This document shows, one piece after another, positions 8,445 to 63,778 of a stretch of 64,000 bases of DNA; positions within the stretch are counted from its first letter, which is position 1; every line of letters starts with the position of its first letter. Origin of the DNA: a phage; sequence record PZ445534.1, one strand, 5' to 3'. The position numbers and the translations under genes were made by a program. Under the pieces are notes generated by a model. The model searched no databases. It worked only from the letters and a program-made list of their open reading frames with translations, and had not been told where the DNA came from.

Positions 8445-8705
8445 TACATCTGGTCAATACACTCGCAAGGTGTACCAGTTCTCTTATGAACTTCTCCGCA
8501 TTTCTACGGAGTGTCGGACTATATCACGTAGCAGTGGTGCTACCGTTGCACTTGGGATGGTCATTAGCTTACCACCCTACTCTACTCAGTTCATACGTTA
8601 AGTATGCTTTTCGATAGTCTCTGAACGTTCCTCTTAAGAGGCTTCGCTGCTGATTACCATATCTTTACAGACTTAGGCTTCCAGCAATTCACAACGTTTT
8701 ACATG
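8445..8705 (-). ncRNA. putative ORF-less group I intron interrupting DNA polymerase motif B
   Basis: Intervening sequence with stop codons; coding strand has R-like GTTCAGAGACTA and S-like GATATAGTCC elements, ends in G; exact splice sites not resolved. Confidence 0.6.
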
Positions 8706-10886
8706 CGCCACTGACGCATAAATGCCATTTTTGGCTTTCTTACGACCTTTTGTAATCTCGTGGAGAAGTTCCTCATCCTGTGTCTCCCTACAACGAACAA
8801 TGTCTTCTTCCTTGTTCAGACCAAAGTAAATACTATTCAGTGTATGTGCATCAGTACCTGTGTAGACTTCATAGAGGTCATTCTCAGCATCATAACGCAG
8901 ATACTTGTCAGTTTCTGGGTTAAGATACTTGTCAAGATGCTTGCAGTAGTATCTACCATCATCTTGCTTAGTGAACTCAACTGACTCTTTACCCTCAGTT
9001 ACCGCTTTAGTGAAGTCTTCATCACCCATAAAGTTACAAAGAAGAACTAGCTGGGCTGAGTTTTGGTCTACAGAGACAACGTTAGTACCTTCTTCACAAA
9101 TCCACACCTCCCTCATAGGTGCTCCATAGACAGCAGCACCAGACGGTACGTTTACAATACCATATTGTGTCATACGTCCAGTTGAAGTACCAAACACCAT
9201 TGCACCAGCACTAAGGCGACCATCAGGACGAATCTGGTTCAACCAACCTTTTTCATCATCTTTTGAGTTCTCAATAGTTCTACGTCGGTGCATCAAAGTA
9301 TAGTACTTAGCAATCTTCTGTCCAAGCTCACCTTCAATCGTATCATAAGATGATTCAGTAAGTTTTGGTGAAGTACGGATTAAGCAAGGCTCAAGCAAAT
9401 CTGTGTATTTCTTCACAGACCAGTTATGCTCAATGTACTGGACACCTTCATGCTCAACATAGCTCAAACCACACCGCTCAACCATTTCCTGCCACTTAGG
9501 ATGCTTTGTAATCATCTTTTTATTGTCTTTGAAACGACAAACTTTGATAGGGCGACCATCTGAGTCTTTCTTGTAATTCCAGTCATCTGGAATCCAACCA
9601 ACTGATTTCAAGTAGTCTTTAACAACTGCTACCTGAGTCATACGAGAAACTTCAAACTCAATTGGTGTATATGGTGCATCAATCAAACCTGTGTAGCGAC
9701 TTGACTCAAGTTCAAAGTGGTTAACAACGTGGCTGTTATAGTACTTCACAGTTTTGACTGTTTTTACTGGCTTCCAGTCTTTGCATTTCTTACCAATCTT
9801 TGCGTTCAACTCATTGCAAATTGCACGAGCATCCTTCATTGCTACAAAACCTTCCTTGTACTCTTCACCAGTTACAGAGTTGGTTGGTGTATAGCAATTC
9901 CTTTTTTCAATGTTAAAAATCTTTGTAGTTGGCTTACCAAATGGTTTGATTTCGTATGTCTGCATCTCACCATTACGTACCTGCTGACGATACTTTGTCT
10001 TAGGGTACTTGGTAATTCTTTTCAGTCCATCTGCATGACCAAATGTTTCAACATACTCATTCCAAGCTTTTGCAAACTCTTCTCCAGTGACTTTACCTTT
10101 GGTCTTAATAGTTGGAGGAAGATGTGGTTCAACCTCTGAAGCAAGCTCATTAGTCAACTTGTCAAGTTCCTTTACATGGAACTCCATAAGCTCTTTATCA
10201 GCTTTCCAACCATTAATAGCTTGTTGACTCATCCAGAAAGATGTTTCTTTAGCTCGCATGTAGGTTTCATAAGTGTCTATGCCACACTTCTTAAGCTTGA
10301 GATACTCATTATCAAGTGCCCGTTTAGTTTTGGCGTTAATACGGATATCTTCTACAACACGAGTGAAGATTTCTGCATTCCACACACCCCAATGTTCAAT
10401 CTCTGGTTTACGAACACCAACACGAGCACCCCATGCAGCCAAGCCATGAGCACCTTTATAACCCTTTGGAGTTGGTCTATCCATCCACTGAACACGAGAC
10501 TGGATAAGAGAATCCTGAAAGAAATTACTCCACGGCTTACACTTTGGATTATCAAAGTTCCATAAATCCGGTGCAATGTGATTGAAAACCCACCAGTCAT
10601 AACCTAGACCATTATGAATGCAAAGACGTTTTGCCTTTAACGCAAACTCAACACCTTCACGTAAGCCACCCTTAATGTACTTGGTATACTTGTGACCGAG
10701 GATAGGCTCATCTGTAAAGACCCATACAGGCGGCTCTTTATCGTCAGATTTATAGTCTGCGAAAGCCATTACGTGCACTTTAGTGAACTCAAGGAGTAAA
10801 CCATCAGTTTCTGTATCACCAACTAAATGTAAGTTTTTAAAATCTACGTTTTCCATTTTTACTCCCTCTAAAATCATTAACCTCAT
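8673..10886 (-). CDS. DNA polymerase (family A, T7 gp5-like) upstream exon/fragment with 3'-5' exonuclease domain
   Basis: Exo motif VGDTETDG near N-terminus; ORF ends inside motif B (RKKAKNGIY...) shortly before an in-frame stop. Confidence 0.85.
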   Translation of the reverse strand: MRLMILEGVKMENVDFKNLHLVGDTETDGLLLEFTKVHVMAFADYKSDDKEPPVWVFTDEPILGHKYTKYIKGGLREGVEFALKAKRLCIHNGLGYDWWVFNHIAPDLWNFDNPKCKPWSNFFQDSLIQSRVQWMDRPTPKGYKGAHGLAAWGARVGVRKPEIEHWGVWNAEIFTRVVEDIRINAKTKRALDNEYLKLKKCGIDTYETYMRAKETSFWMSQQAINGWKADKELMEFHVKELDKLTNELASEVEPHLPPTIKTKGKVTGEEFAKAWNEYVETFGHADGLKRITKYPKTKYRQQVRNGEMQTYEIKPFGKPTTKIFNIEKRNCYTPTNSVTGEEYKEGFVAMKDARAICNELNAKIGKKCKDWKPVKTVKTVKYYNSHVVNHFELESSRYTGLIDAPYTPIEFEVSRMTQVAVVKDYLKSVGWIPDDWNYKKDSDGRPIKVCRFKDNKKMITKHPKWQEMVERCGLSYVEHEGVQYIEHNWSVKKYTDLLEPCLIRTSPKLTESSYDTIEGELGQKIAKYYTLMHRRRTIENSKDDEKGWLNQIRPDGRLSAGAMVFGTSTGRMTQYGIVNVPSGAAVYGAPMREVWICEEGTNVVSVDQNSAQLVLLCNFMGDEDFTKAVTEGKESVEFTKQDDGRYYCKHLDKYLNPETDKYLRYDAENDLYEVYTGTDAHTLNSIYFGLNKEEDIVRCRETQDEELLHEITKGRKKAKNGIYASVAHVKRCELLEA

Positions 10887-24522: not shown

Positions 24523-25722
24523 ATGAACAAAGTACAGATTATTAAAAAGAATGGCTCACTTGAAGAACCTGATATCAAAAAAGTTTTAGCAGCAGTCACA
24601 AAGTCAGCTAACAGAGTTGGTTATAAAGAGCTTCCACCAGATGTTACTCAAGCTCTTGAGTCAGCATTTATGAGGATTCTGGTAAAGTCCACTAAGCAGA
24701 ATAATTTGCTAATTTCGGTAAATGATATTCACAGTATTGTTGAGGGTGCTTTGGCAGAAGTCAATCACGAGATTTATGAGTCTTACTCAACATATAGAAA
24801 TTACCGTAAAGAGGTTGCTCAAAATTGGGATGAACTCTACCAGAAGACCAAAGATACACTCTTCTTAGGCGACCGAGAAAACGCTAATTTTGACAGCAGT
24901 TTAATTTCTACAAAAGGCTCAATTATTCGTGGTTACCTGACTAAAGAAATCTTTAAACAGTACCATTTAACACCAGAGGAACTTGAAGCCATTGAAAAAG
25001 GATTTATCTATATCCATGATTTAAGAGACCTAATTTTTGGTGGTATCAACTGTTGCCTGTTTGACATTGGTAAAGTCCTGAAAGGTGGCTTTGAAATGTC
25101 TGGCATTGAATATTGTGAACCGAAGTCTGTGCTGTCAGCCTTACAGGTTATTGGTGATGTAGTTCTTTCAGCAACTGCACAGCAATTTGGTGGCTTTACT
25201 TTAGCAGAGATTGATAAGGTACTTGTACCGTATGCTAAGAAGTCTCTACGTTACCATGCTGAAAAAGCAACAGCTTATGGTATTCCTAAAGAACATTACC
25301 ACAACTATGTCATGGAGCAGCTACAGATTGAATTAACTCAAGGTTTTCAGTCTCTTGAAATGAAGCTCAATACTGTGCCTTGTAGCCGTGGTGATTTTGC
25401 ATTCACAACTTTGACATTCGGGTTACTTGACTCAGATATGTCTAATGAAGATAACCGACTGCAATACATGATTGCGAGCACTCTCCTAGATGTTCGTATG
25501 AATGGACAAGGTAAGAGCAAGAAACCTGTTGTATTCCCTAAACTGGTTTATATTTATGACCAGAAGAGACACAATGAGAATATCTGTCAAGGCCACCTGT
25601 ACAGTAAAGCTATTGAGTGTTGCTCTAAAGCTATGTATCCAGATTTCTTAAGTGTATCTGGACATGGTGCTGTAGCAGAGGCTTTTGAGCGTTCTGGCAA
25701 GGTAATTTCCCCGATGGGTTAA
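24523..25722 (+). CDS. nrdD: anaerobic ribonucleoside-triphosphate reductase, exon 1
   Basis: ATP-cone-like N-terminus; ORF ends at TAA 25720-25722 which lies at start of intron-like sequence. Confidence 0.75.
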   Translation: MNKVQIIKKNGSLEEPDIKKVLAAVTKSANRVGYKELPPDVTQALESAFMRILVKSTKQNNLLISVNDIHSIVEGALAEVNHEIYESYSTYRNYRKEVAQNWDELYQKTKDTLFLGDRENANFDSSLISTKGSIIRGYLTKEIFKQYHLTPEELEAIEKGFIYIHDLRDLIFGGINCCLFDIGKVLKGGFEMSGIEYCEPKSVLSALQVIGDVVLSATAQQFGGFTLAEIDKVLVPYAKKSLRYHAEKATAYGIPKEHYHNYVMEQLQIELTQGFQSLEMKLNTVPCSRGDFAFTTLTFGLLDSDMSNEDNRLQYMIASTLLDVRMNGQGKSKKPVVFPKLVYIYDQKRHNENICQGHLYSKAIECCSKAMYPDFLSVSGHGAVAEAFERSGKVISPMG

Positions 25723-26023
25723 CAAGCTCTATAGCTCATCTAAAACGTGCCTAAACAGGGAAACTCTACAGATGTAGACAATCCTGTGCTAAATGATGTA
25801 CGATGTAAGAAACTATACAACATAGGAGTCTTACATGCCAAATAACTTCGAATATGAGTTTGAATACATCTAAATGCCGAACGACTAACCGTGATGAATG
25901 TAGCGGTGTAGGGTCAAGCGACTCGAAATGGTACGCTACTTAGAAATAAGTAGAAGATATAGTCTGGACTTACTGGCGACAGTAAGCAGCTTGAATAAAG
26001 CGGGGTAAGCTTAGCGAACTTAC
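25720..26023 (+). ncRNA. putative ORF-less group I intron in nrdD
   Basis: AAACAGGGAAACTCTACAGATGTAGACAATCCTGTGCTAAAT closely resembles the T4 td intron core as recalled; S-like AAGATATAGTC element present; 3' boundary uncertain (26014-26038). Confidence 0.7.
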
Positions 26024-57050: not shown

Positions 57051-58466
57051 ATGAGCGAGTTATTTAAACATGCGCACCTTCATGCAGGTCGAACTGAAAA
57101 TGGTGCTGTAAACCATACTTCATCAATGTCTGCTCTGGTAGACTTCTACAAAGCCGCTGGCTCAAGCCGTAGCAATGTAGAAGTCTTACCAGACCTGTTC
57201 TACAAAGCTTTGCGTGAGGATGTTGATGTTGCAGTTCGTATTTTACTGCATATGCGAGATGTACGAGAGGGTATGGGTGAGCGTAAAGCCTTCCGAACTG
57301 TTTTACTTCAAGCAATTGAAGATAAGGTTTTAGAACCTACACAGGTTCTTCGCATTATGGATAAGATTGCAGAACTTGGTCGTTTTGATGACTTCAAAAT
57401 CTTCGTAGGTACTCGTTTTGAGACAGATGCCTTCAAACATTTAGAAGCAGCATTACTAGACCCTGCAACAGCAGGTTTGGCAGCTAAGTGGTTACCACGA
57501 GTCAAACCACGTCATAAGCAGTTTGTAAAACGTTTCTGCAAGTTTGCCAACTTGAGTGAGAAAGAGTACCGCACACTGTTGTCTGCACTATCTGATACAG
57601 TTGAGCAAAAAATCTCTGCTAATGAGTTTGGTAAGATTGACTACAGTAAGATTCCTTCACTTGCTGCTGCACGTTACCAAAAACTGTTTAACCGTAAAGA
57701 TGGAGAGCGTTACAAAGCTTACATCGAGTCCTTATCAAAAGGTGAGACTAAGATTAACGCTGGTGCTGTTTACCCATACGATGTGATTAAATCTGTCAAG
57801 TATGGTAATGCAGATGTTGCTAATGAGCAGTGGAAAGCACTACCAAACTGGATGGCAGAAGGTGAAAACATCTTGTGTATGTCTGATGTATCAAGTTCAA
57901 TGTCTTGGGTGAATTTTGGCTCCATTACTGCTCTGGATATTGGTGTATCACTTGCCTTGTATGTAGCAGAACGCAATACAGGTTGCTTTAAGAATGAGTT
58001 AATGGTTTATTCAACAAACCCTCACTTCATCGAACTGAGTGGTGATTTACGAAACCGTCATCGTCAGGTGATGCGACACGTTGAATATGGCTCAACTAAC
58101 TTACAAGCAGCTTTTGACCGCATTCTTGAAACAGGTAAAAGAAACAACTTGACTCAGAAAGATATGCCAAGTAAGCTTATCATCTTCTCCGATATGGAGT
58201 TCAATCAGGTTGATGGAGCTAACGGTCGTACAAACTTTGAAGCAATTCAGAGTAAGTACAAAAAAGCTGGATATGAGATGCCACAACTGGTATTCTGGTA
58301 CTTAGCAAACCGTAATGGTACTTGCGAAGTATCTGTTAAGGATAACGGTGTAGCAATGTTATCAGGGTTCTCTCCAGCCACTTTAAAAGCTCTGCTTGGT
58401 GGTGAGAAGTTTGACCCAATCAGTGTAATGCTCAAAGCAGTAATGATTGACCGTTATATCTGGTAA
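57051..58466 (+). CDS. von Willebrand factor A domain protein (DUF2828/TROVE-like?)
   Basis: MIDAS-like CMSDVSSSMSW (DxSxS); N-terminal TENGAVNHTSS segment. Confidence 0.45.
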   Translation: MSELFKHAHLHAGRTENGAVNHTSSMSALVDFYKAAGSSRSNVEVLPDLFYKALREDVDVAVRILLHMRDVREGMGERKAFRTVLLQAIEDKVLEPTQVLRIMDKIAELGRFDDFKIFVGTRFETDAFKHLEAALLDPATAGLAAKWLPRVKPRHKQFVKRFCKFANLSEKEYRTLLSALSDTVEQKISANEFGKIDYSKIPSLAAARYQKLFNRKDGERYKAYIESLSKGETKINAGAVYPYDVIKSVKYGNADVANEQWKALPNWMAEGENILCMSDVSSSMSWVNFGSITALDIGVSLALYVAERNTGCFKNELMVYSTNPHFIELSGDLRNRHRQVMRHVEYGSTNLQAAFDRILETGKRNNLTQKDMPSKLIIFSDMEFNQVDGANGRTNFEAIQSKYKKAGYEMPQLVFWYLANRNGTCEVSVKDNGVAMLSGFSPATLKALLGGEKFDPISVMLKAVMIDRYIW

Positions 58467-58484: not shown

Positions 58485-58513
58485 TTGACAATGTGTTTAA
58501 TACCCTTTAATAT
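58485..58513 (+). promoter_or_regulatory. sigma70-like promoter (TTGACA-17-TAATAT) embedded in palindrome AAGGGTATT/AATACCCTT
   Basis: -35 58485-58490, -10 58508-58513. Confidence 0.5.
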
Positions 58514-58575: not shown

Positions 58576-58605
58576 TTGACAATCACTAAAAAATAATGTT
58601 AAAGT
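58576..58605 (+). promoter_or_regulatory. sigma70-like promoter upstream of tRNA array (TTGACA-18-TAAAGT)
   Basis: -35 58576-58581, -10 58600-58605. Confidence 0.45.
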
Positions 58606-58622: not shown

Positions 58623-58699
58623 AAAGTTTATCTCTGTTTAGCTCAGCTTGGTAGAGCGTTCCGTTTGGGGCGGTAAGGCCGGAGGTTCAAGTCCTCCAA
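58623..58699 (+). tRNA. tRNA-Pro (anticodon TGG)
   Basis: Acceptor CTCTGTT/AACAGAG, D-arm AGCTCAGCTTGGTAGAGC, T-arm GGAGGTTCAAGTCCTCC, encoded CCA; one anticodon-stem mismatch. Confidence 0.7.
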
Positions 58700-58706
58700 C
58701 AGAGAC

Positions 58707-58784
58707 CAAATTAATGTTCCAGTAGACAAAATGGTATAGTCACCACTCTTTCAAAGTGGATATCTGAGGGTTCAAATCCCTTCT
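58707..58784 (+). tRNA. tRNA-Glu (anticodon TTC)
   Basis: Acceptor GTTCCAG/CTGGAAC, anticodon arm CCACT-CTTTCAA-AGTGG, T-loop TTCAAAT, CCA. Confidence 0.7.
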
Positions 58785-58786
58785 GG

Positions 58787-58866
58787 AACGCCAGTTTTGA
58801 CAGAAGACCAATTACAGCAAACTTAATCTACTCATCTGAAAGTTAATCGGACAAAGAAGATATTTG
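58787..58866 (+). repeat. inter-tRNA repeat element copy 1 (ACAGAAGACC-N4-TACAGCAA ... GGTCTGG)
   Basis: Conserved 5' and 3' motifs shared with copies at 58953, 59347, 59437. Confidence 0.6.
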
Positions 58867-58875
58867 GTCTGGTCA

Positions 58876-58951
58876 TTAAGAATTGCGGGTATAGAGAAAG
58901 GGCGTCTCACATGTCTCATTAGCATGGTATCGGCAGGTTCGACTCCTGCAC
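58876..58951 (+). tRNA. tRNA with CAT anticodon (Met/fMet/Ile2), irregular acceptor pairing
   Basis: D-arm GAGA-AAGGGCG-TCTC, anticodon arm CATGT-CTCATTA-GCATG, T-arm GCAGGTTCGACTCCTGC; acceptor 6 of 7 pairs. Confidence 0.5.
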
Positions 58952-58952
58952 C

Positions 58953-59025
58953 CGCCTCCAAATTTACAGAAGACCGTTTACAGCAATATTTATTAAATTT
59001 TTAGCGGAAAAATTGAAAGATACGG
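58953..59025 (+). repeat. inter-tRNA repeat element copy 2
   Basis: ACAGAAGACCGTTTACAGCAA ... ACGGTCTGGT. Confidence 0.6.
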
Positions 59026-59034
59026 TCTGGTAAT

Positions 59035-59108
59035 ACTAAATATGGTTAGGAAGCACATAAGGTATGTGCGGTCGCCTGTTAAGCGAATGGCACAGGGTTC
59101 GAATCCCT
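59035..59108 (+). tRNA. tRNA-Asn (anticodon GTT)
   Basis: Acceptor GGTTAGG/ACTAACC, D-arm GCAC-ATAAGGTAT-GTGC, anticodon loop CTGTTAA, T-arm CAGGGTTCGAATCCCTG; no encoded CCA. Confidence 0.6.
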
Positions 59109-59119
59109 GACTAACCGCA

Positions 59120-59207
59120 AAATTAAATGTGTCGTTATCCCGTAGATGGTAGCGGTGGGGACTGTAAATCCCTTGTCATTGAGACTCGGTAGGTTCGACT
59201 CCTACAC
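59120..59207 (+). tRNA. tRNA-Tyr (anticodon GTA), long variable arm
   Basis: Acceptor GTGTCGT/ACGGCAC, anticodon arm GGGGA-CTGTAAA-TCCCT, T-arm GTAGGTTCGACTCCTAC, CCA. Confidence 0.65.
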
Positions 59208-59212
59208 GGCAC

Positions 59213-59289
59213 ACCAATAAAGGCTATGTAGTTTAACTGGAGAAAATACTCCCCTGTCACGGGAGATGATGTGAGTTCAAGTCTCATCG
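59213..59289 (+). tRNA. tRNA-Asp (anticodon GTC)
   Basis: Acceptor GGCTATG/CGTAGCC, anticodon arm CTCCC-CTGTCAC-GGGAG, T-loop TTCAAGT, CCA. Confidence 0.7.
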
Positions 59290-59346
59290 TAGCCGCCAAT
59301 TTTGAGAGGGCTATTTAGCCCCTCCCTTAAAGAGTTCTTACGAGTA

Positions 59347-59428
59347 TTCTTTAAAGGAGCAGAAGACCAAATACAGCAAGAATGTATGATATTTTCAAGC
59401 CAATTCAATTTTGAAAAATTTAAAACTT
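59347..59428 (+). repeat. inter-tRNA repeat element copy 3
   Basis: CAGAAGACCAAATACAGCAA ... CTTGGTCTGGC. Confidence 0.55.
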
Positions 59429-59436
59429 GGTCTGGC

Positions 59437-59572
59437 TCAACAAATTTACAGAAGACCGTTTACAGCAAAACTTAAACAATCTATTTCTCGGTAAAGAAAA
59501 GGCGAAGGTTCGATTCCTTCACTCGGCAGAGGTCGAGTTGGTGTAATGGTAGCACTTAAGATGATAAACAAC
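59437..59572 (+). repeat. inter-tRNA repeat element copy 4 enclosing tRNA halves in permuted order
   Basis: ACAGAAGACCGTTTACAGCAA ... [anticodon-arm-like + T-arm GAAGGTTCGATTCCTTC + 3' acceptor ACTCGGC] GAG [5' acceptor GTCGAGT + D-arm GTGTAATGGTAGCAC] ... ACGGTCTGGT. Confidence 0.5.
59474..59547 (+). other. tRNA-like segments in 3'-half then 5'-half order (permuted tRNA or recombinant tRNA fragments)
   Basis: 3' acceptor ACTCGGC (59512-59518) is complementary, with one G.U, to GTCGAGT (59523-59529) located 4 nt downstream. Confidence 0.4.
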
Positions 59573-59721
59573 GGTCTGGTAATTATCTTTGCAGTAGCTT
59601 ATGTGGCTAATTATGTCGTCCCATGAGTGCCGATGAATTTCCTTAGCATGATTCTAGATTAGCTTAATAGGAAATGACTCTACAGACCCTTTAGCAAGGT
59701 CTGCGTAGGTTACTGCAAAGA

Positions 59722-59797
59722 TGATTTAATGGAAGTGTAGCAGAATGGTGATGCGGCAGACTTTTAATCTGACAGGCGATGGGTTCGAATCCCTCCA
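59722..59797 (+). tRNA. tRNA-Lys (anticodon TTT)
   Basis: Acceptor GGAAGTG/CACTTCT, anticodon loop CTTTTAA, T-loop TTCGAAT with weak T-stem, CCA; homologous to tRNA at 60957. Confidence 0.55.
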
Positions 59798-59802
59798 CTT
59801 CT

Positions 59803-59879
59803 ACCAAAAATGGTTCAGTCGCAGATAAGGTAATGCAAGGGTTTCATAAGCCCTATGAATGTGGGTTCGATTCCCATCT
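59803..59879 (+). tRNA. tRNA with CAT anticodon (Met/fMet/Ile2)
   Basis: Acceptor GGTTCAG/CTGAACC, anticodon arm AGGGT-TTCATAA-GCCCT, T-loop TTCGATT, CCA. Confidence 0.65.
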
Positions 59880-59881
59880 GA

Positions 59882-59957
59882 ACCTCCAATGCTGTGAAAG
59901 CACATATGGATGTGCATTCGGCTGATAACCGAAAGGCAGAAGGTTCGAATCCTTCTC
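59882..59957 (+). tRNA. tRNA-Ile (anticodon GAT)
   Basis: Acceptor GCTGTGA/TCACAGT, D-arm GCAC-ATATGGAT-GTGC, anticodon arm TTCGG-CTGATAA-CCGAA, T-arm GAAGGTTCGAATCCTTC, CCA. Confidence 0.7.
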
Positions 59958-59972
59958 ACAGTACCAATTTCA

Positions 59973-60001
59973 ATAAAGTTGTTGACATTAAGATGTGACT
60001 A
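59973..60001 (+). promoter_or_regulatory. sigma70-like promoter inside tRNA array (TTGACA-17-TATAGT)
   Basis: -35 59973-59978, -10 59996-60001. Confidence 0.55.
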
Positions 60002-60205
60002 CTTTATAGTAACCTTAGTTTTCGTTGCGTAGCGTCTATTTTGCAAATTTAAAATAAATGCAAACGACAATGTTTTTCTGGCAGTAGCTTGATAGGCTAA
60101 ACACCAGTGAGGTCTTCCAATCCCTCATCAAAGAATTTGGCGTACTCGCCCACGGTATGATTAATAAGGTGGGCATCTTTAAGGGCTTTCTAATAGAGTC
60201 TTTAA

Positions 60206-60287
60206 AGATAATTACGGGGCGTATCTCAGCGGTCTTCTAAACCGCCGTTAACCGAGTAAGTGGAGTATGCGGGTTCGAGTCCTGCCG
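60206..60287 (+). tRNA. atypical tRNA-like gene, possible anticodon TCT (Arg)
   Basis: Acceptor CGGGGCG/CGCCTCG, T-arm GCGGGTTCGAGTCCTGC, CCA; hairpin GCGGT-CTTCTAA-ACCGC; D-arm region not canonical. Confidence 0.4.
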
Positions 60288-60430
60288 CCTCGACCAATTT
60301 AGTTAGCAGATTACTTAGACGACCTAAGCGGGTCTTCCTGTAGGGAGGTGGTCTGTATCTCATGTTTTCCAGAACATGTAAATAATCTGAGAAGGGGCTT
60401 TACAGTGTTGAGATAATACGGTAAGCTTCG

Positions 60431-60513
60431 AATTATAGTATGGGACGATGTTAAGACTCTAAGGCATGAGCAACGGCCTCCAAAACCGTTTCAAAGGGGT
60501 TCAACTCCTCCGT
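60431..60513 (+). tRNA. atypical tRNA-like gene, possible anticodon CCA (Trp)
   Basis: Perfect acceptor ATGGGAC/GTCCCAT, T-loop TTCAACT, CCA; enlarged D region. Confidence 0.4.
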
Positions 60514-60526
60514 CCCATGCCAAAGT

Positions 60527-60614
60527 CTTATTAGGGGTAGGTAGCGGCTAATGGCAGCCAAACAGTCTTGAAAACTGTTGCCACTGTAGAGATACGGTGA
60601 GGGTTCGACTCCTT
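60527..60614 (+). tRNA. tRNA-Ser (anticodon TGA), long variable arm
   Basis: Acceptor GGTAGGT/ACTTACC, anticodon arm ACAGT-CTTGAAA-ACTGT, 20-nt variable arm, T-loop TTCGACT. Confidence 0.6.
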
Positions 60615-60770
60615 TACTTACCGCCTAATAAGATTTTAAAGCCAAGCTTCATTCGGATGTCGCTTTGGTATCCCTCGTGTATTGTCGTACACACTGATAA
60701 AACACCTAGTAGGTGTCACGGAGAAGAGATAATATCAAGCTCTCCAAAGGTTCTAGTCACCGGATTAAAC

Positions 60771-60797
60771 AAGACTATGCAAAGACCTTTTTAGGTC
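60771..60797 (+). terminator. rho-independent terminator inside tRNA array
   Basis: AGACC-TTTTT-AGGTCT plus TTTTT. Confidence 0.5.
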
Positions 60798-60872
60798 TTT
60801 TTAGAGGGCTTCTAAGGTTATTACAGCTTGTTGTGGAACCTTGTTGCTTAGGTTCTTAGAAGTTCTCTAAAA

Positions 60873-60949
60873 AGATTTAATGCACCTATAGCCCAACTGG
60901 TAGAGGCAGCAGACTTAGAATCTGCTCAGTGTGAGTTCGAATCTCTCTA
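60873..60949 (+). tRNA. tRNA with anticodon TAG (Leu by anticodon) but short variable arm
   Basis: Acceptor GCACCTA/TAGGTGT, anticodon arm GCAGA-CTTAGAA-TCTGC, T-loop TTCGAAT, CCA. Confidence 0.55.
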
Positions 60950-60956
60950 GGTGTAC

Positions 60957-61032
60957 CAAATTAATGCAGGTGTAGCAAAATGGTTATGCGGCTGACCCTT
61001 AATCAGTAAGACGATGGGTTCAATTCCCTCCA
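60957..61032 (+). tRNA. tRNA-Lys (anticodon CTT)
   Basis: Acceptor GCAGGTG/CACCTGT, anticodon arm GCTGA-CCCTTAA-TCAGT, T-loop TTCAATT, CCA. Confidence 0.55.
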
Positions 61033-61038
61033 CCTGTA

Positions 61039-61114
61039 CCAAACAATGGGGTCATAGTTTATATGGTTAAAATTCGAGTTTTGCAAACTTGGGAACTGAG
61101 TTCAATTCTCAGTG
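61039..61114 (+). tRNA. tRNA-Ala (anticodon TGC)
   Basis: Acceptor GGGGTCA/TGACTCC, anticodon arm CGAGT-TTTGCAA-ACTTG, T-arm CTGAGTTCAATTCTCAG, CCA. Confidence 0.7.
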
Positions 61115-61120
61115 ACTCCA

Positions 61121-61195
61121 CCAATTAGTGCATCCATAGTTTAAACGGGAAAATTACAGTCTTCCAAACTGAGGTTGAGGGTTCGATTCCCTCTG
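61121..61195 (+). tRNA. tRNA-Gly (anticodon TCC)
   Basis: Acceptor GCATCCA/TGGATGC, anticodon loop CTTCCAA, T-arm GAGGGTTCGATTCCCTC, CCA. Confidence 0.7.
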
Positions 61196-61202
61196 GATGC
61201 TC

Positions 61203-61278
61203 CAAATTAATGCTCCTATCGTATAATTGGTTATTACGGTTGCCTTGTAAGCAACTTATCAGGGTTCGAGTCCTTGTG
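61203..61278 (+). tRNA. tRNA-Thr (anticodon TGT)
   Basis: Acceptor GCTCCTA/TGGGAGC, anticodon arm GTTGC-CTTGTAA-GCAAC, T-loop TTCGAGT, CCA. Confidence 0.7.
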
Positions 61279-61384
61279 GGAGCACCAATTCAGAGGTCAA
61301 GTGAAAGACCGCTTTGAGTCAACTGAAGACCGTAACAAATTCCACGAAGTTGAGTTAGCGGCACAACTTCAGACCTCTTTCATA

Positions 61385-61459
61385 CTCGCTTAGTTTATAT
61401 GGTAAAACATCACCCTTACAAGATGAAGAAAAAGGTTCAAGTCCTTTAGTGAGTACCAT
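61385..61459 (+). tRNA. tRNA-Val (anticodon TAC)
   Basis: Acceptor ACTCGCT/AGTGAGT, anticodon loop CTTACAA, T-arm AAAGGTTCAAGTCCTTT, CCA. Confidence 0.6.
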
Positions 61460-61460
61460 G

Positions 61461-61538
61461 TTCCAGTATCCCAATTGGCAGAGGATGCAAGCTCAAACCT
61501 TGTATTAGTGACGGTTCGAATCCGTCTTGGAACACCAA
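61461..61538 (+). tRNA. tRNA with anticodon CAA (Leu by anticodon) but short variable arm
   Basis: Acceptor GTTCCAG/TTGGAAC, anticodon arm GCAAG-CTCAAAC-CTTGT, T-arm GACGGTTCGAATCCGTC, CCA. Confidence 0.55.
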
Positions 61539-61543
61539 TTTTG

Positions 61544-61619
61544 CAGGATTAGTTCAAATGGATAGAGCAACAGTCTACGAAGCTGCTAATAGGGGTTCGA
61601 ATCCCTTATCCTGCGCCAA
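61544..61619 (+). tRNA. tRNA-Arg (anticodon ACG)
   Basis: Acceptor GCAGGAT/ATCCTGC, D-arm GTTC-AAATGGATA-GAGC, anticodon loop CTACGAA, T-loop TTCGAAT, CCA. Confidence 0.6.
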
Positions 61620-61637
61620 TTTAAAGAGGCTATTTAG

Positions 61638-62195
61638 ATGAGATATTTGAAGTATGCTTCATGGATTTTCTTAGCTTTGTTAGAGCCATTTGCAGCAATC
61701 TTAGCAGTTATCTTAGCACCTTTTGTAGTTCCATTCTACAGTGAGAAGAAAGGGCACTTACCTTTCGGGTTCAGATGGATGGAGACATATGACAACCCAA
61801 TTGATGGTGATGAAGGTCACGTTAAAAGATGGGCTAATATTAGATGGATTGGTAAACTAGGTGTCTACATGCAAAGAGTCGGATGGCTCTGGAGAAACAA
61901 AGCTTATAACTTCTCTTACCATGTATTAGGAAGAGATGTAAGAGATGTTACTAAGTGGAAAGGTAATATCAACGTAAGTTCTGACCCCGAAGATAATCAG
62001 ACAGGTTATCTCCTAATGTGGAACAGTAATGCTTGGGGATTATTCGCTTTTATCCCATCAATTAAAATCTTTGGTAAACAATTTTACTGGAGAATTTATA
62101 TTGGATGGAAACTAAAAAGTGTTGTCCCAGAAGAAAGAGCATTCTCAAGGGAAAGAGTTATGTTGGCATTCTTTATTCATCCACTGAGAAAGTAA
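61638..62195 (+). CDS. hypothetical membrane-anchored protein encoded within tRNA array
   Basis: 185-aa ORF with N-terminal hydrophobic segment WIFLALLEPFAAILAVILAPFVV. Confidence 0.45.
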   Translation: MRYLKYASWIFLALLEPFAAILAVILAPFVVPFYSEKKGHLPFGFRWMETYDNPIDGDEGHVKRWANIRWIGKLGVYMQRVGWLWRNKAYNFSYHVLGRDVRDVTKWKGNINVSSDPEDNQTGYLLMWNSNAWGLFAFIPSIKIFGKQFYWRIYIGWKLKSVVPEERAFSRERVMLAFFIHPLRK

Positions 62196-62203
62196 AGATT
62201 TAA

Positions 62204-62279
62204 AGGGGATTAGTTTACAAGGTTAAAACCTCGGTCTTTGAAATCGAAGAAGTTGGTTCAATTCCAACATCCCCCGCCA
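62204..62279 (+). tRNA. tRNA-Gln (anticodon TTG)
   Basis: Acceptor AGGGGAT/ATCCCCC (1-72 mismatch), D-arm GTTT...AAAC, anticodon arm TCGGT-CTTTGAA-ATCGA, T-arm GTTGGTTCAATTCCAAC, CCA. Confidence 0.6.
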
Positions 62280-62281
62280 AT

Positions 62282-62360
62282 GCTCCATTACTCCAATTGG
62301 CAGAGAGGCCAGACTTAAAATCTGTGTTATGTATCGGTTCGAATCCGATATGGAGTACCA
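62282..62360 (+). tRNA. tRNA with anticodon TAA (Leu by anticodon), 7-nt variable loop
   Basis: Acceptor GCTCCAT/ATGGAGT, anticodon loop CTTAAAA, T-arm ATCGGTTCGAATCCGAT, CCA. Confidence 0.5.
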
Positions 62361-62365
62361 AATTT

Positions 62366-62441
62366 AGCGGTATAGCATAACTGGCAATGCAGCAGCCTCT
62401 GAAGCTGTCCTATTAAGGTTCAAATCCTTATGCCGCTGCCA
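62366..62441 (+). tRNA. tRNA-Gln (anticodon CTG)
   Basis: Acceptor AGCGGTA/TGCCGCT, D-arm GCAT-AACTGGCA-ATGC, anticodon arm GCAGC-CTCTGAA-GCTGT, T-arm TAAGGTTCAAATCCTTA, CCA. Confidence 0.7.
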
Positions 62442-62472
62442 CTTCTAAGGATTCTTGCGAGAGTCCTTAAAT

Positions 62473-62548
62473 GTGGCCTTATCATAAACGGTAATGACCC
62501 ATGCTGTGAACATGGTCTATACGGGTTCAAATCCCGTAGGTCACCCCA
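62473..62548 (+). tRNA. tRNA-His (anticodon GTG)
   Basis: Acceptor GTGGCCT/AGGTCAC, anticodon arm CCATG-CTGTGAA-CATGG, T-arm ACGGGTTCAAATCCCGT, CCA. Confidence 0.7.
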
Positions 62549-62554
62549 ATTTAT

Positions 62555-62630
62555 AGTCCAAGTAGCTTATATGGTTAAAGCGCGTGTCTGAAAAACATGA
62601 GAAGAGAGTTCAAATCCCACTGGACTACCA
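62555..62630 (+). tRNA. tRNA-Phe (anticodon GAA), boundaries approximate
   Basis: Anticodon arm CGTGT-CTGAAAA-ACATG, D-arm GCTT...AAGC, T-loop TTCAAAT; acceptor pairing ambiguous between two registers. Confidence 0.5.
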
Positions 62631-62646
62631 ATTTCAAAGGTGCTTA

Positions 62647-63381
62647 ATGAAAGAGATGACAGAACAAGGTAAGGAGATTTTTAATCTCTTAAAAACTGGT
62701 AAAGGGTTCTCTAACCCGCTTATTACTGGTGCAGCAGTTCTCGGTGGAACCGTAGCTGCCTCTACATCACTTGTAAGCTCTATTAGTTCTGTAACAGACC
62801 CTACAATGAAGGAGAAGCTTGTTGCTGCTGGACTTACAACAGTCCTTCTAAACAGCTTTACAACAAGCCTGACAAGCACTACAGCAACCACTAAGACCCT
62901 AACAGACTATGGTCAAAAGTCTATTGATGAGTTTTCATCACGTATGCAGGTAGCAAAGGGATACTCCAATGTTATGGGTGCAGCAGGAGAACAAGTTGGT
63001 TGTACACCATTCAGTGGTATTATGGGTGTTGCTACAGAATATGGTCAAAAAGCTATTGATACGATTAACAGTACACTAGAGAGTGTTAATGGTGTGTTAA
63101 GTGACTTACAAGATGCTATTGATAAGGGTCTTGATACTGTTTCTGATTTAGCTAATCAGGCTGTTAGTAAGATTAATGAAGGTATTTCAAAGATTACAGC
63201 TTATGCAGATGAAGTTGTGCAGATGATTGAAGAAGAAGCTGCCCTTATTGCAGAGTACCTTAAAACGAATATCAATGGGTTCTTAGCAGGTATCTTACCA
63301 GACTGGTTTGATGATGCTTGTAAAACTGGTGTAATCGACACTATTGCAACACCAGAAATGAAGAACGCATTGCAGAAATAA
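62647..63381 (+). CDS. hypothetical Ser/Thr-rich protein
   Basis: ATG at 62647 with AAGGTG RBS (ORF track start 62584 would overlap tRNA-Phe). Confidence 0.45.
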   Translation: MKEMTEQGKEIFNLLKTGKGFSNPLITGAAVLGGTVAASTSLVSSISSVTDPTMKEKLVAAGLTTVLLNSFTTSLTSTTATTKTLTDYGQKSIDEFSSRMQVAKGYSNVMGAAGEQVGCTPFSGIMGVATEYGQKAIDTINSTLESVNGVLSDLQDAIDKGLDTVSDLANQAVSKINEGISKITAYADEVVQMIEEEAALIAEYLKTNINGFLAGILPDWFDDACKTGVIDTIATPEMKNALQK

Positions 63382-63382
63382 T

Positions 63383-63475
63383 GGAAGATTAACCCTAAAA
63401 GGTAAGGGAGCAGTTTGCTAAACTGCCAGTAGCTGAGAAATCGGTGTACCAGTTCAAGTCTGGTATCTTCCTCCA
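63383..63475 (+). tRNA. tRNA-Ser (anticodon GCT), long variable arm
   Basis: Acceptor GGAAGAT/ATCTTCC, anticodon arm GCAGT-TTGCTAA-ACTGC, T-arm ACCAGTTCAAGTCTGGT, CCA. Confidence 0.6.
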
Positions 63476-63480
63476 ATTTT

Positions 63481-63555
63481 GAATCCGTGACAGAAATGGA
63501 TATGTGCCTGTCTGCAAAACAGGTTTATAAGGGTTCAAGTCCCTTCGGATTCTCC
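63481..63555 (+). tRNA. tRNA-Cys (anticodon GCA)
   Basis: Acceptor GAATCCG/CGGATTC, anticodon arm CCTGT-CTGCAAA-ACAGG, T-arm AAGGGTTCAAGTCCCTT, CCA. Confidence 0.65.
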
Positions 63556-63778
63556 AAGTTATTTTACTCTCTCTCAATTAAAATAATAATAATGCCCTGC
63601 TATAAGTATTCTTCCTTTCGCTACCGAAGAGTATTTTTAGACAGGGCTTTTTTACAGAGTTATACTTTATAAGAAGGCTTATACAGTATGTCTCTGACGT
63701 ACATTGTGGTTTCTCCTTGACGGTCTCTGTGCCGTCTTTTTTAAGGAGAAACATGGTTAATTATTTGGAGAAAACATA

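What the first reader, a model, noticed from the sequence alone, without database searches (positions are those of the whole stretch)
58623..63555. Large tRNA gene array of about 27 genes with its own promoters, a terminator and an embedded ORF
Hand-folded cloverleafs give anticodons for Pro, Glu, Met/fMet/Ile2 (two CAT), Asn, Tyr, Asp, Lys (TTT and CTT), Ile, Ser (TGA and GCT), Ala, Gly, Thr, Val, Arg (ACG, possibly TCT), Gln (TTG and CTG), His, Phe, Cys, possibly Trp, and three Leu-type anticodons. Most encode CCA. Sigma70-like promoters sit at 58576 and 59973, a terminator at 60771, and a 185-aa membrane-protein ORF (61638-62195) is embedded. Several tRNAs show acceptor or T-stem irregularities in my folds, which may be real or manual-parse errors.
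Basis: partly seen in the sequence, partly recalled or inferred. Interest (0 to 1): 0.5.

Follow-up and report, generated by a model that had tools for sequence, protein, structure and literature searches.

The report
Phage tRNA array hiding Ro/Y-RNA module
The tRNA gene cluster is real and already known from Felix O1-type phages, but its "empty" spacers hold four unannotated Y-RNA-like genes, one a circularly permuted tRNA mimic, just downstream of a Ro60-fold protein gene that in a sister phage disarms a bacterial defence system.

Summary
ARAGORN finds 25 tRNAs at 58632-63556, all on the + strand, and 23 of them encode CCA. The window is a Felixounavirus, about 95% identical to Felix O1, and its tRNA cluster has been annotated since 2010. 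That part is ordinary.

The spacers are the new part. The gene directly upstream (57051-58466) is called DUF2828+DUF7788 by Pfam, but its model matches only full-length Ro60/TROVE structures. It is 97% identical to Bas63 gp130, a published counter of the Ppl defence. Four spacer elements (58796-58877, 58962-59035, 59355-59440, 59444-59584) share a terminal helix followed by a conserved UUACAGCAA loop. The fourth has V, T, a loop-closed acceptor stem and D, which is the YrlA layout.

Covariance models find the same RNA next to 50 of 75 very divergent Ro-like genes. All 85 hits are on the gene's strand and every modelled pair covaries. The same RNA occurs in mycobacteriophage LeBron and a Listeria phage.

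No Rfam family, genome annotation or paper I could search describes these RNAs. They lack the canonical GNCGAA motif. RNA-protein binding is inferred, not shown.

The parts
57051..58466 (+). Ro60-fold protein gene (471 aa): N-terminal helical-repeat domain plus C-terminal vWA domain with a DxSxS MIDAS motif. Orthologue of Bas63 gp130.
   Evidence: Pfam DUF2828+DUF7788 only. AF2 model pLDDT 86, pTM 0.86. The top 11 Foldseek PDB hits are all full-length Ro60/TROVE (E 4e-7 to 2e-5, TM up to 0.64). D279/S281/S283 are invariant. 97% identical to bas63_0130.
58485..58513 (+). sigma-70-like promoter (TTGACA-17-TAATAT) overlapping a hairpin just after the Ro-like gene
58576..58605 (+). sigma-70-like promoter (TTGACA-18-TAAAGT, TG extension) 27 nt upstream of tRNA-Pro
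58632..58708 (+). tRNA-Pro(tgg)
58716..58793 (+). tRNA-Glu(ttc)
58796..58877 (+). Y-like RNA copy 1 (short form). It fills the Glu-Met spacer.
   Evidence: motif; CM R1 48.9 bits; R2 49.6 bits
58884..58960 (+). tRNA-Met(cat), low-scoring (missed by Rfam)
58962..59035 (+). Y-like RNA copy 2 (short form). It fills the Met-Asn spacer. The outer stem covaries between relatives (UUUAC/GUAAU <-> UUUGC/GCAAU).
   Evidence: 53.5 bits
59044..59118 (+). tRNA-Asn(gtt), no encoded CCA
59129..59216 (+). tRNA-Tyr(gta), long variable arm
59222..59298 (+). tRNA-Asp(gtc)
59355..59440 (+). Y-like RNA copy 3 (short form)
   Evidence: 29.8 bits; 40.1 bits
59444..59584 (+). Y-like RNA copy 4 (long, YrlA-like). Order: terminal helix, UUUACAGCAA loop, V hairpin, T-arm GAAGGUUCGAUUCCUUC, loop-closed acceptor-like stem ACUCGGC/GUCGAGU, D-arm GUGUAAUGGUAGCAC.
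   Evidence: fold; acceptor-like stem covariation across relatives; CM 173.9 bits; no Rfam family
59581..59728 (+). Structured RNA E1: 23-bp closing stem and three-way junction. It contains a mini hairpin CAGACC-CUUUAGCAA-GGUCUG that resembles the Y-like binding module. Present only in some relatives.
   Evidence: z -6.8; 4 compensatory pairs; distribution
59731..59806 (+). tRNA-Lys(ttt)
59812..59888 (+). tRNA-Met(cat) second copy (replaced by an HNH gene in Felix O1)
59891..59966 (+). tRNA-Ile(gat)
59982..60010 (+). sigma-70-like promoter TTGACA-17-TATAGT (11/12), equal to P45 of Felix O1
60011..60214 (+). Structured leader RNA E2 downstream of the internal promoter
   Evidence: z -3.0; 3 compensatory pairs
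60215..60293 (+). Non-canonical tRNA-like gene, anticodon loop CUUCUAA (Arg-TCT). It has acceptor, anticodon and T arms and CCA, but no D-arm and a 23-nt variable region.
   Evidence: Rfam 31.7 bits; anticodon stem covaries; compared with the canonical tRNA-Arg(TCT) of Moogle-type phages at the same site
60440..60522 (+). Non-canonical tRNA-Trp(cca)-like gene: A1-U72, G73, CCA end, CUCCAAA loop, and 8 extra nucleotides before a 3-bp D-stem
   Evidence: ARAGORN -mt; 6 compensatory pairs across three genera
60536..60625 (+). tRNA-Ser(tga), no encoded CCA
60781..60800 (+). Weak terminator-like hairpin AAAGACCU/AGGUCUUU plus UUUU. Its 3' arm is also the 5' arm of a large alternative hairpin (60791-60880).
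   Evidence: inverted repeat I1
60882..60958 (+). tRNA-Leu(tag), short variable loop (class I shape)
60966..61041 (+). tRNA-Lys(ctt)
61048..61123 (+). tRNA-Ala(tgc)
61130..61204 (+). tRNA-Gly(tcc)
61212..61287 (+). tRNA-Thr(tgt)
61288..61383 (+). Structured spacer E3 (contains GAAGACCGUAACAA, possibly a decayed Y-like copy)
   Evidence: z -3.3; conserved at 96-100%
61384..61458 (+). tRNA-Val(tac)
61460..61537 (+). tRNA-Leu(caa), short variable loop
61543..61618 (+). tRNA-Arg(acg)
61638..62195 (+). Embedded ORF, 185 aa, DUF7338 (annotated 'putative holin' or 'conserved protein' in relatives)
62204..62279 (+). tRNA-Gln(ttg)
62282..62360 (+). tRNA-Leu(taa), short variable loop
62366..62441 (+). 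tRNA-Gln(ctg)
62473..62548 (+). tRNA-His(gtg)
62555..62630 (+). tRNA-Phe(gaa)
62647..63381 (+).
63383..63475 (+). tRNA-Ser(gct)
63481..63556 (+). tRNA-Cys(gca)
63594..63653 (+). Strong intrinsic-terminator-like hairpin plus U6 closing the array
   Evidence: z -5.2

Best explanation
The region is the Felix O1-type tRNA operon. Host RNA polymerase transcribes it from sigma-70-like promoters at about 58485/58576 and 59982. It supplies 25 canonical tRNAs plus two conserved non-canonical ones for phage translation and, probably, to replace host tRNAs attacked by defence nucleases.

A phage Ro/Y-RNA module is interleaved with the tRNAs. The gene just upstream encodes a divergent Ro60-fold protein. 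Four spacer RNAs are its likely partners. Each has a terminal helix (5' AAG-N5 / N5-CUG 3') followed by a single-stranded UU(A/U)C(A/C)GCAA loop.

Copies 1 and 2 each fill a tRNA-tRNA spacer almost exactly, starting 2-3 nt after the upstream CCA and ending 7-9 nt before the next tRNA. Copies 3 and 4 lie in tandem in the longer Asp-Lys spacer, with copy 4 followed by the E1 element. I infer that the ordinary tRNA-maturation enzymes (RNase P at the downstream tRNA, 3'-trailer nucleases at the upstream one) release the copies as discrete small RNAs.

Copy 4 adds a circularly permuted tRNA-like domain (V, T, closed acceptor stem, D), as YrlA does. By analogy this domain could recruit a tRNA-binding or RNA-decay partner to the Ro ring.

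Shown: the genes, the protein fold, the RNA structure and its covariation, and the genetic linkage across phages. Inferred: expression, processing, RNA-protein binding and biological role.
For: tRNAs. Identity with the known Felix O1 cluster.

Ro fold: the AF2 model matches only Ro60/TROVE chains over its full length. The MIDAS residues are invariant. Relatives are annotated 'Ro-like RNA binding protein'.

RNA family in the window: the motif occurs 4 times against 0.18 expected. The copy-4 fold shows the V-T-AS-D order. The acceptor-like stem changes sequence but stays paired in Mordin, Sf13 and EcSzw-2. With filters off there are exactly four CM hits at 30-174 bits, and the next best is 13 bits or less.

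RNA family elsewhere: with model R1, 47 of 47 hits are on the Ro strand. With model R2, 85 of 85 hits are on the Ro strand, in 50 of 75 divergent loci, at a median of 203 nt from the gene. Covariation: 27/27 and 25/25 pairs change on both sides, with scores of 0.50 and 0.40 against 0.11-0.13 for shuffles and 0.04-0.08 for slid partners. The same RNAs lie beside the Ro-like genes of LeBron and a Listeria phage; in CP30A only the CAGCAA motif was found, as a weak partial match.

Linkage to tRNAs: 226 of 226 tRNAs in the divergent loci are on the Ro strand.

Bas63 gp130 is 97% identical, and Bas63 has the same four RNAs outside its annotated tRNAs. gp130 counters Ppl (PMC11482910).

Precedents: YrlA beside Ro60 in bacteria and phages (PMC4201824), and Thermus phage Ro60 binding Yrl1/2 and PNPase (PMC12135203).
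Against: There is no expression or binding data for these RNAs.

The canonical YrlA/Yrl motif (GNCGAA / CGAA) is absent. No Rfam family matches, even at E<=10.

Pfam does not class the protein as TROVE, and profile-to-PDB sequence matches to Ro60 are not significant (E 0.5).

gp130 alone, from a plasmid or inside T7, rescues T7 from Ppl. The Y-like RNAs are therefore dispensable for that activity.

The covariation counts come from alignments fitted to the model, which favours the structure.

25 of the 75 divergent loci gave no hit.
Confidence: 0.75

Rival explanations
1. A plain tRNA array. The repeated spacer elements are only processing or spacer hairpins (RNase E/III/P guides) that help cut the polycistronic precursor. 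They have no life of their own and no link to the upstream protein.
For: Copies 1 and 2 sit exactly between tRNAs, and tRNA operons do need processing signals. gp130 works against Ppl without them. The energy z-scores of the short copies are modest, -1.1 to -2.4.
Against: Processing hairpins would not need an invariant 8-nt single-stranded loop or a complete permuted tRNA-like domain. Most other spacers in the array are 2-10 nt and carry no such element. In 31 of 79 cases in divergent phages the RNA lies within 100 nt of the Ro-like gene, and several of those loci have no tRNA at all (L020, L023, L083).
Confidence: 0.12
2. The elements are decayed tRNA remnants. Copy 4 would be the 3' half of one dead tRNA next to the 5' half of another, and the other copies are repeat debris from array rearrangements driven by HNH homing endonucleases.
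For: Relatives carry HNH endonuclease genes inside the array and differ in tRNA content. Copy 4 has bona fide T- and D-arm sequences. Tandem tRNAs can mimic the pattern, as in some hits of the regex screen.
Against: The two 'halves' pair with each other through a 7-bp stem that covaries across genera. The arrangement recurs beside Ro-like genes only 30-45% identical to this one, closed by GNRA/UUCG-type tetraloops rather than CCA spacers. Every copy is on one strand.
Confidence: 0.05
3. The RNAs are real and functional but partner something other than the Ro-fold protein. They could be decoys or sponges for tRNA-targeting defence nucleases or for tRNA-modifying enzymes, and are linked to the tRNA array rather than to the protein.
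For: Copy 4 mimics a tRNA body without an anticodon. Phage tRNA arrays are implicated in evading anticodon nucleases (refs 60-61 cited in PMC11482910; PMC12482277). The array also holds two odd tRNA-like genes.
Against: The short forms have no tRNA-like part, yet they share the same helix and loop. In divergent phages the closest and most constant neighbour is the Ro-like gene, not a tRNA.
Confidence: 0.08

Closest known systems
Felix O1 / Felixounavirus tRNA gene cluster (Whichard et al. 2010, PMC3185647)
   Same: Same locus, gene order and anticodons, at about 95% DNA identity. The internal promoter P45 is the same. The cluster lies between the 'RNA-binding/vWFA' gene and the terminase gene.
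   Different: This window has no HNH endonuclease insertions and keeps the second tRNA-Met and tRNA-Ser(tga). The published descriptions list only tRNAs and ORFs, and nothing in the spacers.
YrlA/YrlB Y RNAs of Salmonella and other bacteria, and of mycobacteriophages (Chen et al. 2014, PMC4201824)
   Same: Encoded next to a Ro60-type gene and on its strand. The 5' and 3' ends pair. There is a conserved motif on the 5' side. The interior has V, T, a closed acceptor-like stem and D, in that order. A long tRNA-like form and a short form coexist.
   Different: The conserved loop is UU(A/U)C(A/C)GCAA, not GNCGAA(N)G. The protein partner is the DUF2828/DUF7788 family, which Pfam does not call TROVE. 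There are four copies, and they are interleaved with tRNA genes. No Rfam model hits them.
Thermus phage phiLo Ro60 with Yrl1/Yrl2 (PMC12135203; PDB 9KOP, 9L5Y)
   Same: A phage-encoded Ro60 ring with a vWA domain and adjacent Y-like RNA genes. It is the best structural match to the window protein. In phiLo, binding to the RNAs and to host PNPase was shown.
   Different: About 15% sequence identity. The phiLo RNAs carry the CGAA motif and lie upstream of the gene. No tRNA array is involved.
Bas63 (Escherichia phage JohannRWettstein) gp130, anti-Ppl factor (PhageMaP preprint, PMC11482910)
   Same: Orthologue, 97% identical, at the same position upstream of the tRNA array. The authors noted the Ro60-like fold and guessed that Y RNAs might be nearby.
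   Different: They proposed that some annotated tRNAs might be Y RNAs and named none. Here the candidates are four unannotated spacer elements, one of them under a spurious opposite-strand ORF call (bas63_0137).
Phage T4 tRNA cluster with stable 'species 1 and 2' RNAs (my own knowledge, not checked here)
   Same: Small stable non-tRNA RNAs are co-transcribed and co-processed with a phage tRNA cluster.
   Different: T4 has no Ro-like gene, and I did not test sequence or structural similarity.

Membership tests
Canonical tRNA genes (phage tRNA array) | Cloverleaf recognised by independent tRNA detectors | tested here: met
   25 by ARAGORN. 24 Rfam RF00005 matches above gathering, 23 of them among the ARAGORN set.
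Canonical tRNA genes (phage tRNA array) | Expression, aminoacylation and use in translation | not testable with these tools
   Needs tRNA-seq or charging assays.
Bacterial class II tRNA-Leu | Long variable arm (stem-loop of more than 10 nt) | tested here: not met
   All three Leu genes are 77-79 nt including CCA, with 4-6 nt variable loops. Four of five tRNA-Leu genes in other phage loci are 83-88 nt.
Bacterial class II tRNA-Leu | A73 discriminator and Leu-type D-arm (3-bp stem, AAYUGGYAGA loop) | tested here: met
   Sequences and ARAGORN drawings. The comparison with E. coli tRNA-Leu is from memory.
Ro60/Rsr (TROVE + vWA) proteins | Helical-repeat ring plus C-terminal vWA fold | tested here: met
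   The top 11 Foldseek PDB hits are all full-length Ro60/TROVE, from a pLDDT 86 model.
Ro60/Rsr (TROVE + vWA) proteins | Match to the Pfam TROVE model / significant sequence similarity to Ro60 | tested here: not met
   Pfam gives only DUF2828 and DUF7788. Against PDB, phmmer finds nothing and the profile gives Ro60 at E 0.5.
Ro60/Rsr (TROVE + vWA) proteins | MIDAS motif DxSxS in the vWA domain | tested here: met
   D279, S281 and S283 are invariant in 32 homologues and align to the Ro60 MIDAS.
Ro60/Rsr (TROVE + vWA) proteins | Binds Y RNA / misfolded RNA | not testable with these tools
   Needs EMSA, CLIP or a co-structure.
YrlA-type Y RNA | Encoded within about 4 kb of a Ro60-type gene, on the same strand | tested here: met
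   The four copies lie 330-1120 nt downstream on the same strand. In divergent phages 85 of 85 hits are on the same strand, at a median of 203 nt.
YrlA-type Y RNA | 5' and 3' ends pair into a stem | tested here: met
   Helix 2 is 96.6% paired, and all 7 of its pairs change on both sides.
YrlA-type Y RNA | tRNA-like domain in the order V, T, closed acceptor-like stem, D, with tRNA-type T- and D-loops | tested here: met
   Copy 4 only: T-loop UUCGAUU, D-loop AAUGGUA, U8. Copies 1-3 lack it and are YrlB-like.
YrlA-type Y RNA | GNCGAA(N0-1)G motif near the 5' end | tested here: not met
   The conserved loop is UU(A/U)C(A/C)GCAA in all copies and in the divergent phages. The only GGCGAAG in copy 4 is in the T-stem and is not conserved in relatives.
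YrlA-type Y RNA | Recognised by a curated RNA family model | tested here: not met
   No Rfam hit other than the tRNA T-arm at E<=10.
YrlA-type Y RNA | Bound by Ro; carries tRNA-type modifications; substrate of RNase P / CCA enzyme | not testable with these tools
   Experimental.

The most novel reading that the evidence does not exclude
The spacer elements are founding examples of an undescribed and very widespread phage Y-RNA family. The family is defined by a helix plus a C(A/C)GCAA loop and comes in long tRNA-mimic and short forms. It is the RNA partner of the DUF2828-type Ro proteins, which occur in at least 710 sequenced phages (Felix O1-like, KVP40-like Vibrio, Campylobacter, Listeria, Enterococcus, Staphylococcus, Bacillus, mycobacteriophage cluster L). 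In Felix O1-type phages the RNAs are produced by tRNA-punctuated processing of the tRNA operon. They would tune or redirect a Ro RNP that protects the phage from host defence (Ppl) or polices the phage's own tRNA pool.
Probability: 0.5. Interest if true: 0.75.

Novelty: new variant of a known kind. Interest (0 to 1): 0.6.

Why it matters
The tRNA array itself adds nothing new. The value lies in the spacers.

They give concrete, testable RNA partners for a phage Ro60-like protein that already has a phenotype: Bas63 gp130 defeats the Ppl defence. The authors of that work guessed Y RNAs existed but did not locate them.

Y RNAs and Ro60 are best known from human autoimmunity and bacterial stress responses. 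A large phage branch with its own recognition motif, tied to tRNA arrays and sometimes to RtcB ligase, would link RNA quality control, tRNA supply and anti-defence in phages.

It would also correct the annotation of hundreds of genomes, where these loci are blank or called as spurious small ORFs.

The short-armed Leu tRNAs and the D-arm-less Arg-like and expanded Trp-like genes raise separate questions about how host synthetases or nucleases see phage tRNAs.

Tried and rejected
1. Rfam at permissive thresholds on the whole array and on copy 4 alone gave only tRNA matches plus chance hits (tmRNA 15.8 bits, plastid UTR models on the antisense of tRNAs, miRNA models). I rejected these as noise.

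2. Sequence-only comparison of the upstream protein with PDB showed nothing significant. Only the fold comparison was informative.

3. MAFFT alignment of divergent Y-like RNAs misplaced the stems. I abandoned it and used Infernal realignment from a hand-structured Felix-type seed.

4. My strict regex for permuted modules also caught tandem tRNAs with identical acceptor stems ('CCA' inside the loop: L038, L063, L073 second hit, L079). I excluded those by eye.

5. I considered copy 4 as a true permuted or split tRNA gene. I rejected this because it has no anticodon arm and the ends form the conserved Y-type helix.

6. I considered the repeats as HNH homing sites or mobile elements. I rejected this because HNH genes in Felix O1 and heid sit elsewhere in the array and the repeats are strand-specific and structurally constrained.

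7. Literature searches for DUF2828, for Felix O1 plus Ro-like, for short-armed phage tRNA-Leu and for Felixounavirus small-RNA data found nothing on these RNAs. The supplementary phage list of Chen et al. 2014 is not held, so I could not verify that Felix O1-type phages were absent from their 22 phages.

8. The review PMC10870794 could not be retrieved.

Full report
**The observation**

ARAGORN finds 25 tRNA genes between 58632 and 63556, all on the + strand. Their anticodons are Pro, Glu, Met x2, Asn, Tyr, Asp, Lys x2, Ile, Ser x2, Leu x3, Ala, Gly, Thr, Val, Arg(ACG), Gln x2, His, Phe and Cys. Rfam's tRNA model independently matches 24 sites above its gathering score. These include one extra site at 60215-60293 whose anticodon loop reads Arg-TCT. 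ARAGORN in its permissive mitochondrial mode also calls a Trp(CCA) gene at 60440-60522. 23 of the 25 canonical genes encode CCA.

The promoter-like sites at 58576 and 59982 exist (10/12 and 11/12 matches), and there is a third at 58485. The 59982 site is promoter P45 of the Felix O1 genome paper. The 'terminator at 60771' is a weak 8-bp hairpin plus U4 at 60781-60800. A far stronger terminator, at 63594-63653, closes the array. The embedded ORF 61638-62195 is a real family member (DUF7338). A second embedded ORF, 62647-63381 (DUF7217), was overlooked.

**Where the window comes from**

The 5.6-kb region matches 372 phage records. It is 96.7% identical to Escherichia phage JLBYU32 and 95% identical to Salmonella phage Felix O1. 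All of these are Ounavirinae, and the same tRNA cluster is annotated between a 'vWFA/RNA-binding protein' gene and the terminase gene. Felix O1's 22 tRNAs were published in 2010, together with a codon-usage comparison concluding that seven of them could aid translation. As a tRNA array the finding is therefore correct but already known.

**What else is there**

About 1.5 kb of the array is spacer. A 20-nt motif, CAGAAGACC-NNN-TACAGCAA, occurs four times, only in spacers, against 0.18 expected by chance. Each copy is followed 50-120 nt later by GGUCUGG, which pairs with the start of the motif. The fourth copy (59444-59584) folds into:
- a terminal helix;
- a single-stranded UUUACAGCAA;
- a small hairpin;
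- a perfect T-arm;
- a 7-bp stem closed by a tetraloop;
- a perfect D-arm.

This is a tRNA body opened at the anticodon and closed at the acceptor end. Chen et al. (2014) described that architecture (V, T, AS, D) for YrlA, the bacterial Y RNA that partners the Ro60 orthologue Rsr.

**The protein next door**

The gene ending 166 nt before the first tRNA (57051-58466) hits only DUF2828 and DUF7788 in Pfam. It has no significant sequence match in the PDB. An AlphaFold model built from 32 homologues is confident (pLDDT 86, pTM 0.86). Its eleven best Foldseek matches in the PDB are all full-length Ro60/TROVE structures: Thermus phage phiLo Ro60, Xenopus Ro60 with and without RNA, human Ro60, and Deinococcus Rsr. 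E-values are 4e-7 to 2e-5 and TM-scores reach 0.64. Below them come only isolated vWA domains. The vWA MIDAS residues D279/S281/S283 are invariant. Homologues in mycobacteriophages are annotated 'Ro-like RNA binding protein', and 710 phage records encode a relative.

**Is the RNA real?**

Within Ounavirinae the closed 'acceptor' stem of copy 4 changes sequence but stays paired. It is ACUCGGC/GUCGAGU in the window, ACUCGAC/GUCGAGU in JLBYU32, ACCCUUC/GAAGGGU in Mordin and ACACG/CGUGU in Sf13 and EcSzw-2. The outer stem of copy 2 switches UUUAC/GUAAU to UUUGC/GCAAU.

I fetched 80 viral contigs encoding relatives of the protein, 75 of them only about 40-45% identical. A strict pattern for 'T-arm, closed hairpin, D-arm' hit 27 times on the protein's strand, once on the other strand and never in shuffled sequence. 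The divergent examples share the layout. Each has a helix of unrelated sequence (GGAUUCU/AGAAUCC, AGAUCAU/AUGAUCU, GGCUCU/AGAGCC and so on), followed at once by YNC(A/C)GCAA.

A covariance model built from six Felix-type orthologues with a hand-set structure found 47 matches at E<=1 in 0.96 Mb, all on the protein's strand. Rebuilt from those matches, it found 85 matches at E<=0.1, again all on that strand. They fall in 50 of the 75 divergent loci, at a median of 203 nt from the gene and with 31 within 100 nt. There are 41 long and 38 short forms, and 13 loci have both.

Every modelled base pair shows changes on both sides. 96% and 91% of cells are paired. The covariation scores are 0.50 and 0.40, against 0.11-0.13 for column shuffles and 0.04-0.08 when partners are slid by 1-3 columns. 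These alignments are fitted to the model, which favours the structure. The margin is nevertheless large, and the hand-read examples agree with it.

The family consensus is 5' AAG-N5-UU(A/U)C(A/C)GCAA ... N5-CUG 3'. In the window, scanned with filters off, exactly four copies score 30-174 bits and nothing else exceeds 13 bits.

Named phages show the same thing. LeBron has a short and a long copy immediately after its Ro-like gp53. Listeria phage LMLPA3 has two copies just before its gene, in a neighbourhood that also holds tRNAs and an RtcB ligase. Campylobacter CP30A has the motif just upstream of its gene. In the divergent loci all 226 tRNAs lie on the Ro strand, and several Y-like RNAs abut tRNAs within 0-3 nt.

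**How it probably works**

The following is inference from anatomy and from the YrlA and phiLo precedents. The array is transcribed by host polymerase. Copies 1 and 2 occupy their tRNA-tRNA spacers almost exactly, starting 2-3 nt after the upstream CCA and ending 7-9 nt before the next tRNA. Copies 3 and 4 lie in tandem in the longer Asp-Lys spacer. RNase P and the 3'-trailer nucleases that mature the tRNAs would therefore release the copies as small RNAs. The invariant helix and loop would be the docking site for the Ro-fold protein. The tRNA-like domain of copy 4 would offer a second surface for a tRNA-binding or RNA-decay factor. In bacteria and in phage phiLo, Y RNAs tether Ro to PNPase in this way.

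The orthologous protein of phage Bas63 (97% identical) was shown to counter the Ppl defence system. [quoted passage not shown] My model finds the four RNAs in Bas63 too. They lie in unannotated spacers and under a spurious opposite-strand ORF (bas63_0137), not among the annotated tRNAs.

One important limit applies. gp130 alone restores T7 growth on a Ppl host. The RNAs are therefore not needed for that activity. Their role may be regulatory, or may concern another function such as surveillance of the phage's own tRNAs.

**Comparison and novelty**

The element works like a Ro/Y-RNA system. By adjacency, strand, terminal stem and the V-T-AS-D domain, it belongs with the YrlA/YrlB kind. It fails two tests:
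- The GNCGAA motif is replaced by C(A/C)GCAA.
- Neither Pfam (for the protein) nor Rfam (for the RNA) recognises it.

Chen et al. searched only genomes annotated with a TROVE protein, and the papers I could read name mycobacteriophages, CcrColossus and Bacillus phage G. Their supplementary list is not available to me, so prior detection in some DUF2828-type phage cannot be excluded. I found no paper on DUF2828 and RNA, or on spacer RNAs in Felix O1-type phages. I therefore rate it a new variant of a known kind.

**Other conserved oddities in the array**

- All three Leu tRNAs have a class I shape with 4-6 nt variable loops, but keep A73 and a Leu-type D-arm. Four of five tRNA-Leu genes in other phage loci are class II.
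- The Trp-like gene keeps A1-U72, G73, CCA and a CUCCAAA loop. Six of its pairs change compensatorily across three genera, yet it has 8 extra nucleotides before a 3-bp D-stem.
- The Arg-TCT-like gene has a covarying anticodon stem, but no D-arm and an 18-nt longer variable region than the canonical tRNA-Arg(TCT) found at the same site in Moogle-type phages.
- Two further spacer segments, 59581-59728 and 60011-60214, are strongly structured and have a few compensatory changes. The first contains a mini hairpin, CAGACC-CUUUAGCAA-GGUCUG, that looks like a stripped-down copy of the Y-like docking module.

Noticed in passing
window 8494-8776 (-) and 25605-25986 (+): Two group I intron matches above Rfam's gathering score (61.7 and 54.6 bits). 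The Felix O1 genome paper states that introns are absent from that phage.
   Followed up: no
window 60882-60958, 61460-61537, 62282-62360: All three tRNA-Leu genes lack the long variable arm that defines bacterial tRNA-Leu (77-79 nt with CCA, 4-6 nt variable loop). They keep A73 and a Leu-type D-arm. tRNA-Leu genes in other phage loci fetched here are mostly 83-88 nt.
   Followed up: partly
window 60440-60522: Conserved non-canonical tRNA-Trp(CCA)-like gene with 8 extra nucleotides between the acceptor stem and a 3-bp D-stem. All substitutions across three genera are compensatory. It is not annotated as a tRNA in the relatives checked.
   Followed up: partly
window 60215-60293: tRNA-Arg(TCT)-like gene without a D-arm and with a 23-nt variable region. 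Moogle-type relatives carry a canonical tRNA-Arg(TCT) with different acceptor and T arms at the same site. The anticodon stem covaries among Felix-type phages.
   Followed up: partly
window 59581-59728: 148-nt RNA structure (z -6.8) with a 23-bp closing stem. It holds a mini hairpin CAGACC-CUUUAGCAA-GGUCUG that covaries to CAAACC/GGUUUG. It is present in JLBYU32, Mordin, Sf13 and EcSzw-2, but absent from Felix O1, heid and five IMG/VR relatives.
   Followed up: partly
window 60011-60214: Structured ~200-nt leader after the internal promoter, with three compensatory pairs in one hairpin. It shares the hairpin GCAGUAGCUU..GGCUAA with 59591-59610. The weak tmRNA-model hit here (15.8 bits) is probably chance.
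   Followed up: partly
window 60781-60880: The weak terminator hairpin (60781-60800) and a much stronger 90-nt hairpin (60791-60880, z -5.3) are mutually exclusive, because they share the GGUCUUUUUAGAG arm. This is an attenuator-like arrangement just upstream of tRNA-Leu(tag).
   Followed up: no
L002 (Felix O1) 1864-2349, 2837-3229, 4147-4560; L003 (heid) 2153-2551: Relatives carry one to three HNH homing-endonuclease genes inside the array, replacing or displacing tRNAs (for example the second tRNA-Met in Felix O1). This window has none.
   Followed up: partly
L003 (heid) 1252-1480: In phage heid the 5' motif of copy 4 was not found, although its T/AS/D core and 3' strand are present. Copies 3 and 4 may be fused or rearranged there.
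   Followed up: no
L089 (Listeria phage LMLPA3) 1-9455: The Ro-like gene sits with tRNAs, an RtcB-type RNA ligase, a metal-dependent phosphohydrolase and a 'tRNA amidotransferase'. This RNA-repair neighbourhood recalls the Salmonella rsr-yrlBA-rtcBA operon.
   Followed up: no
L091 (Bas63) 3122-3274 and 3286-3396, minus strand: The small 'hypothetical protein' genes bas63_0137 and bas63_0138 overlap Y-like copy 4 and the following structured RNA on the opposite strand. They are probably annotation artefacts.
   Followed up: partly
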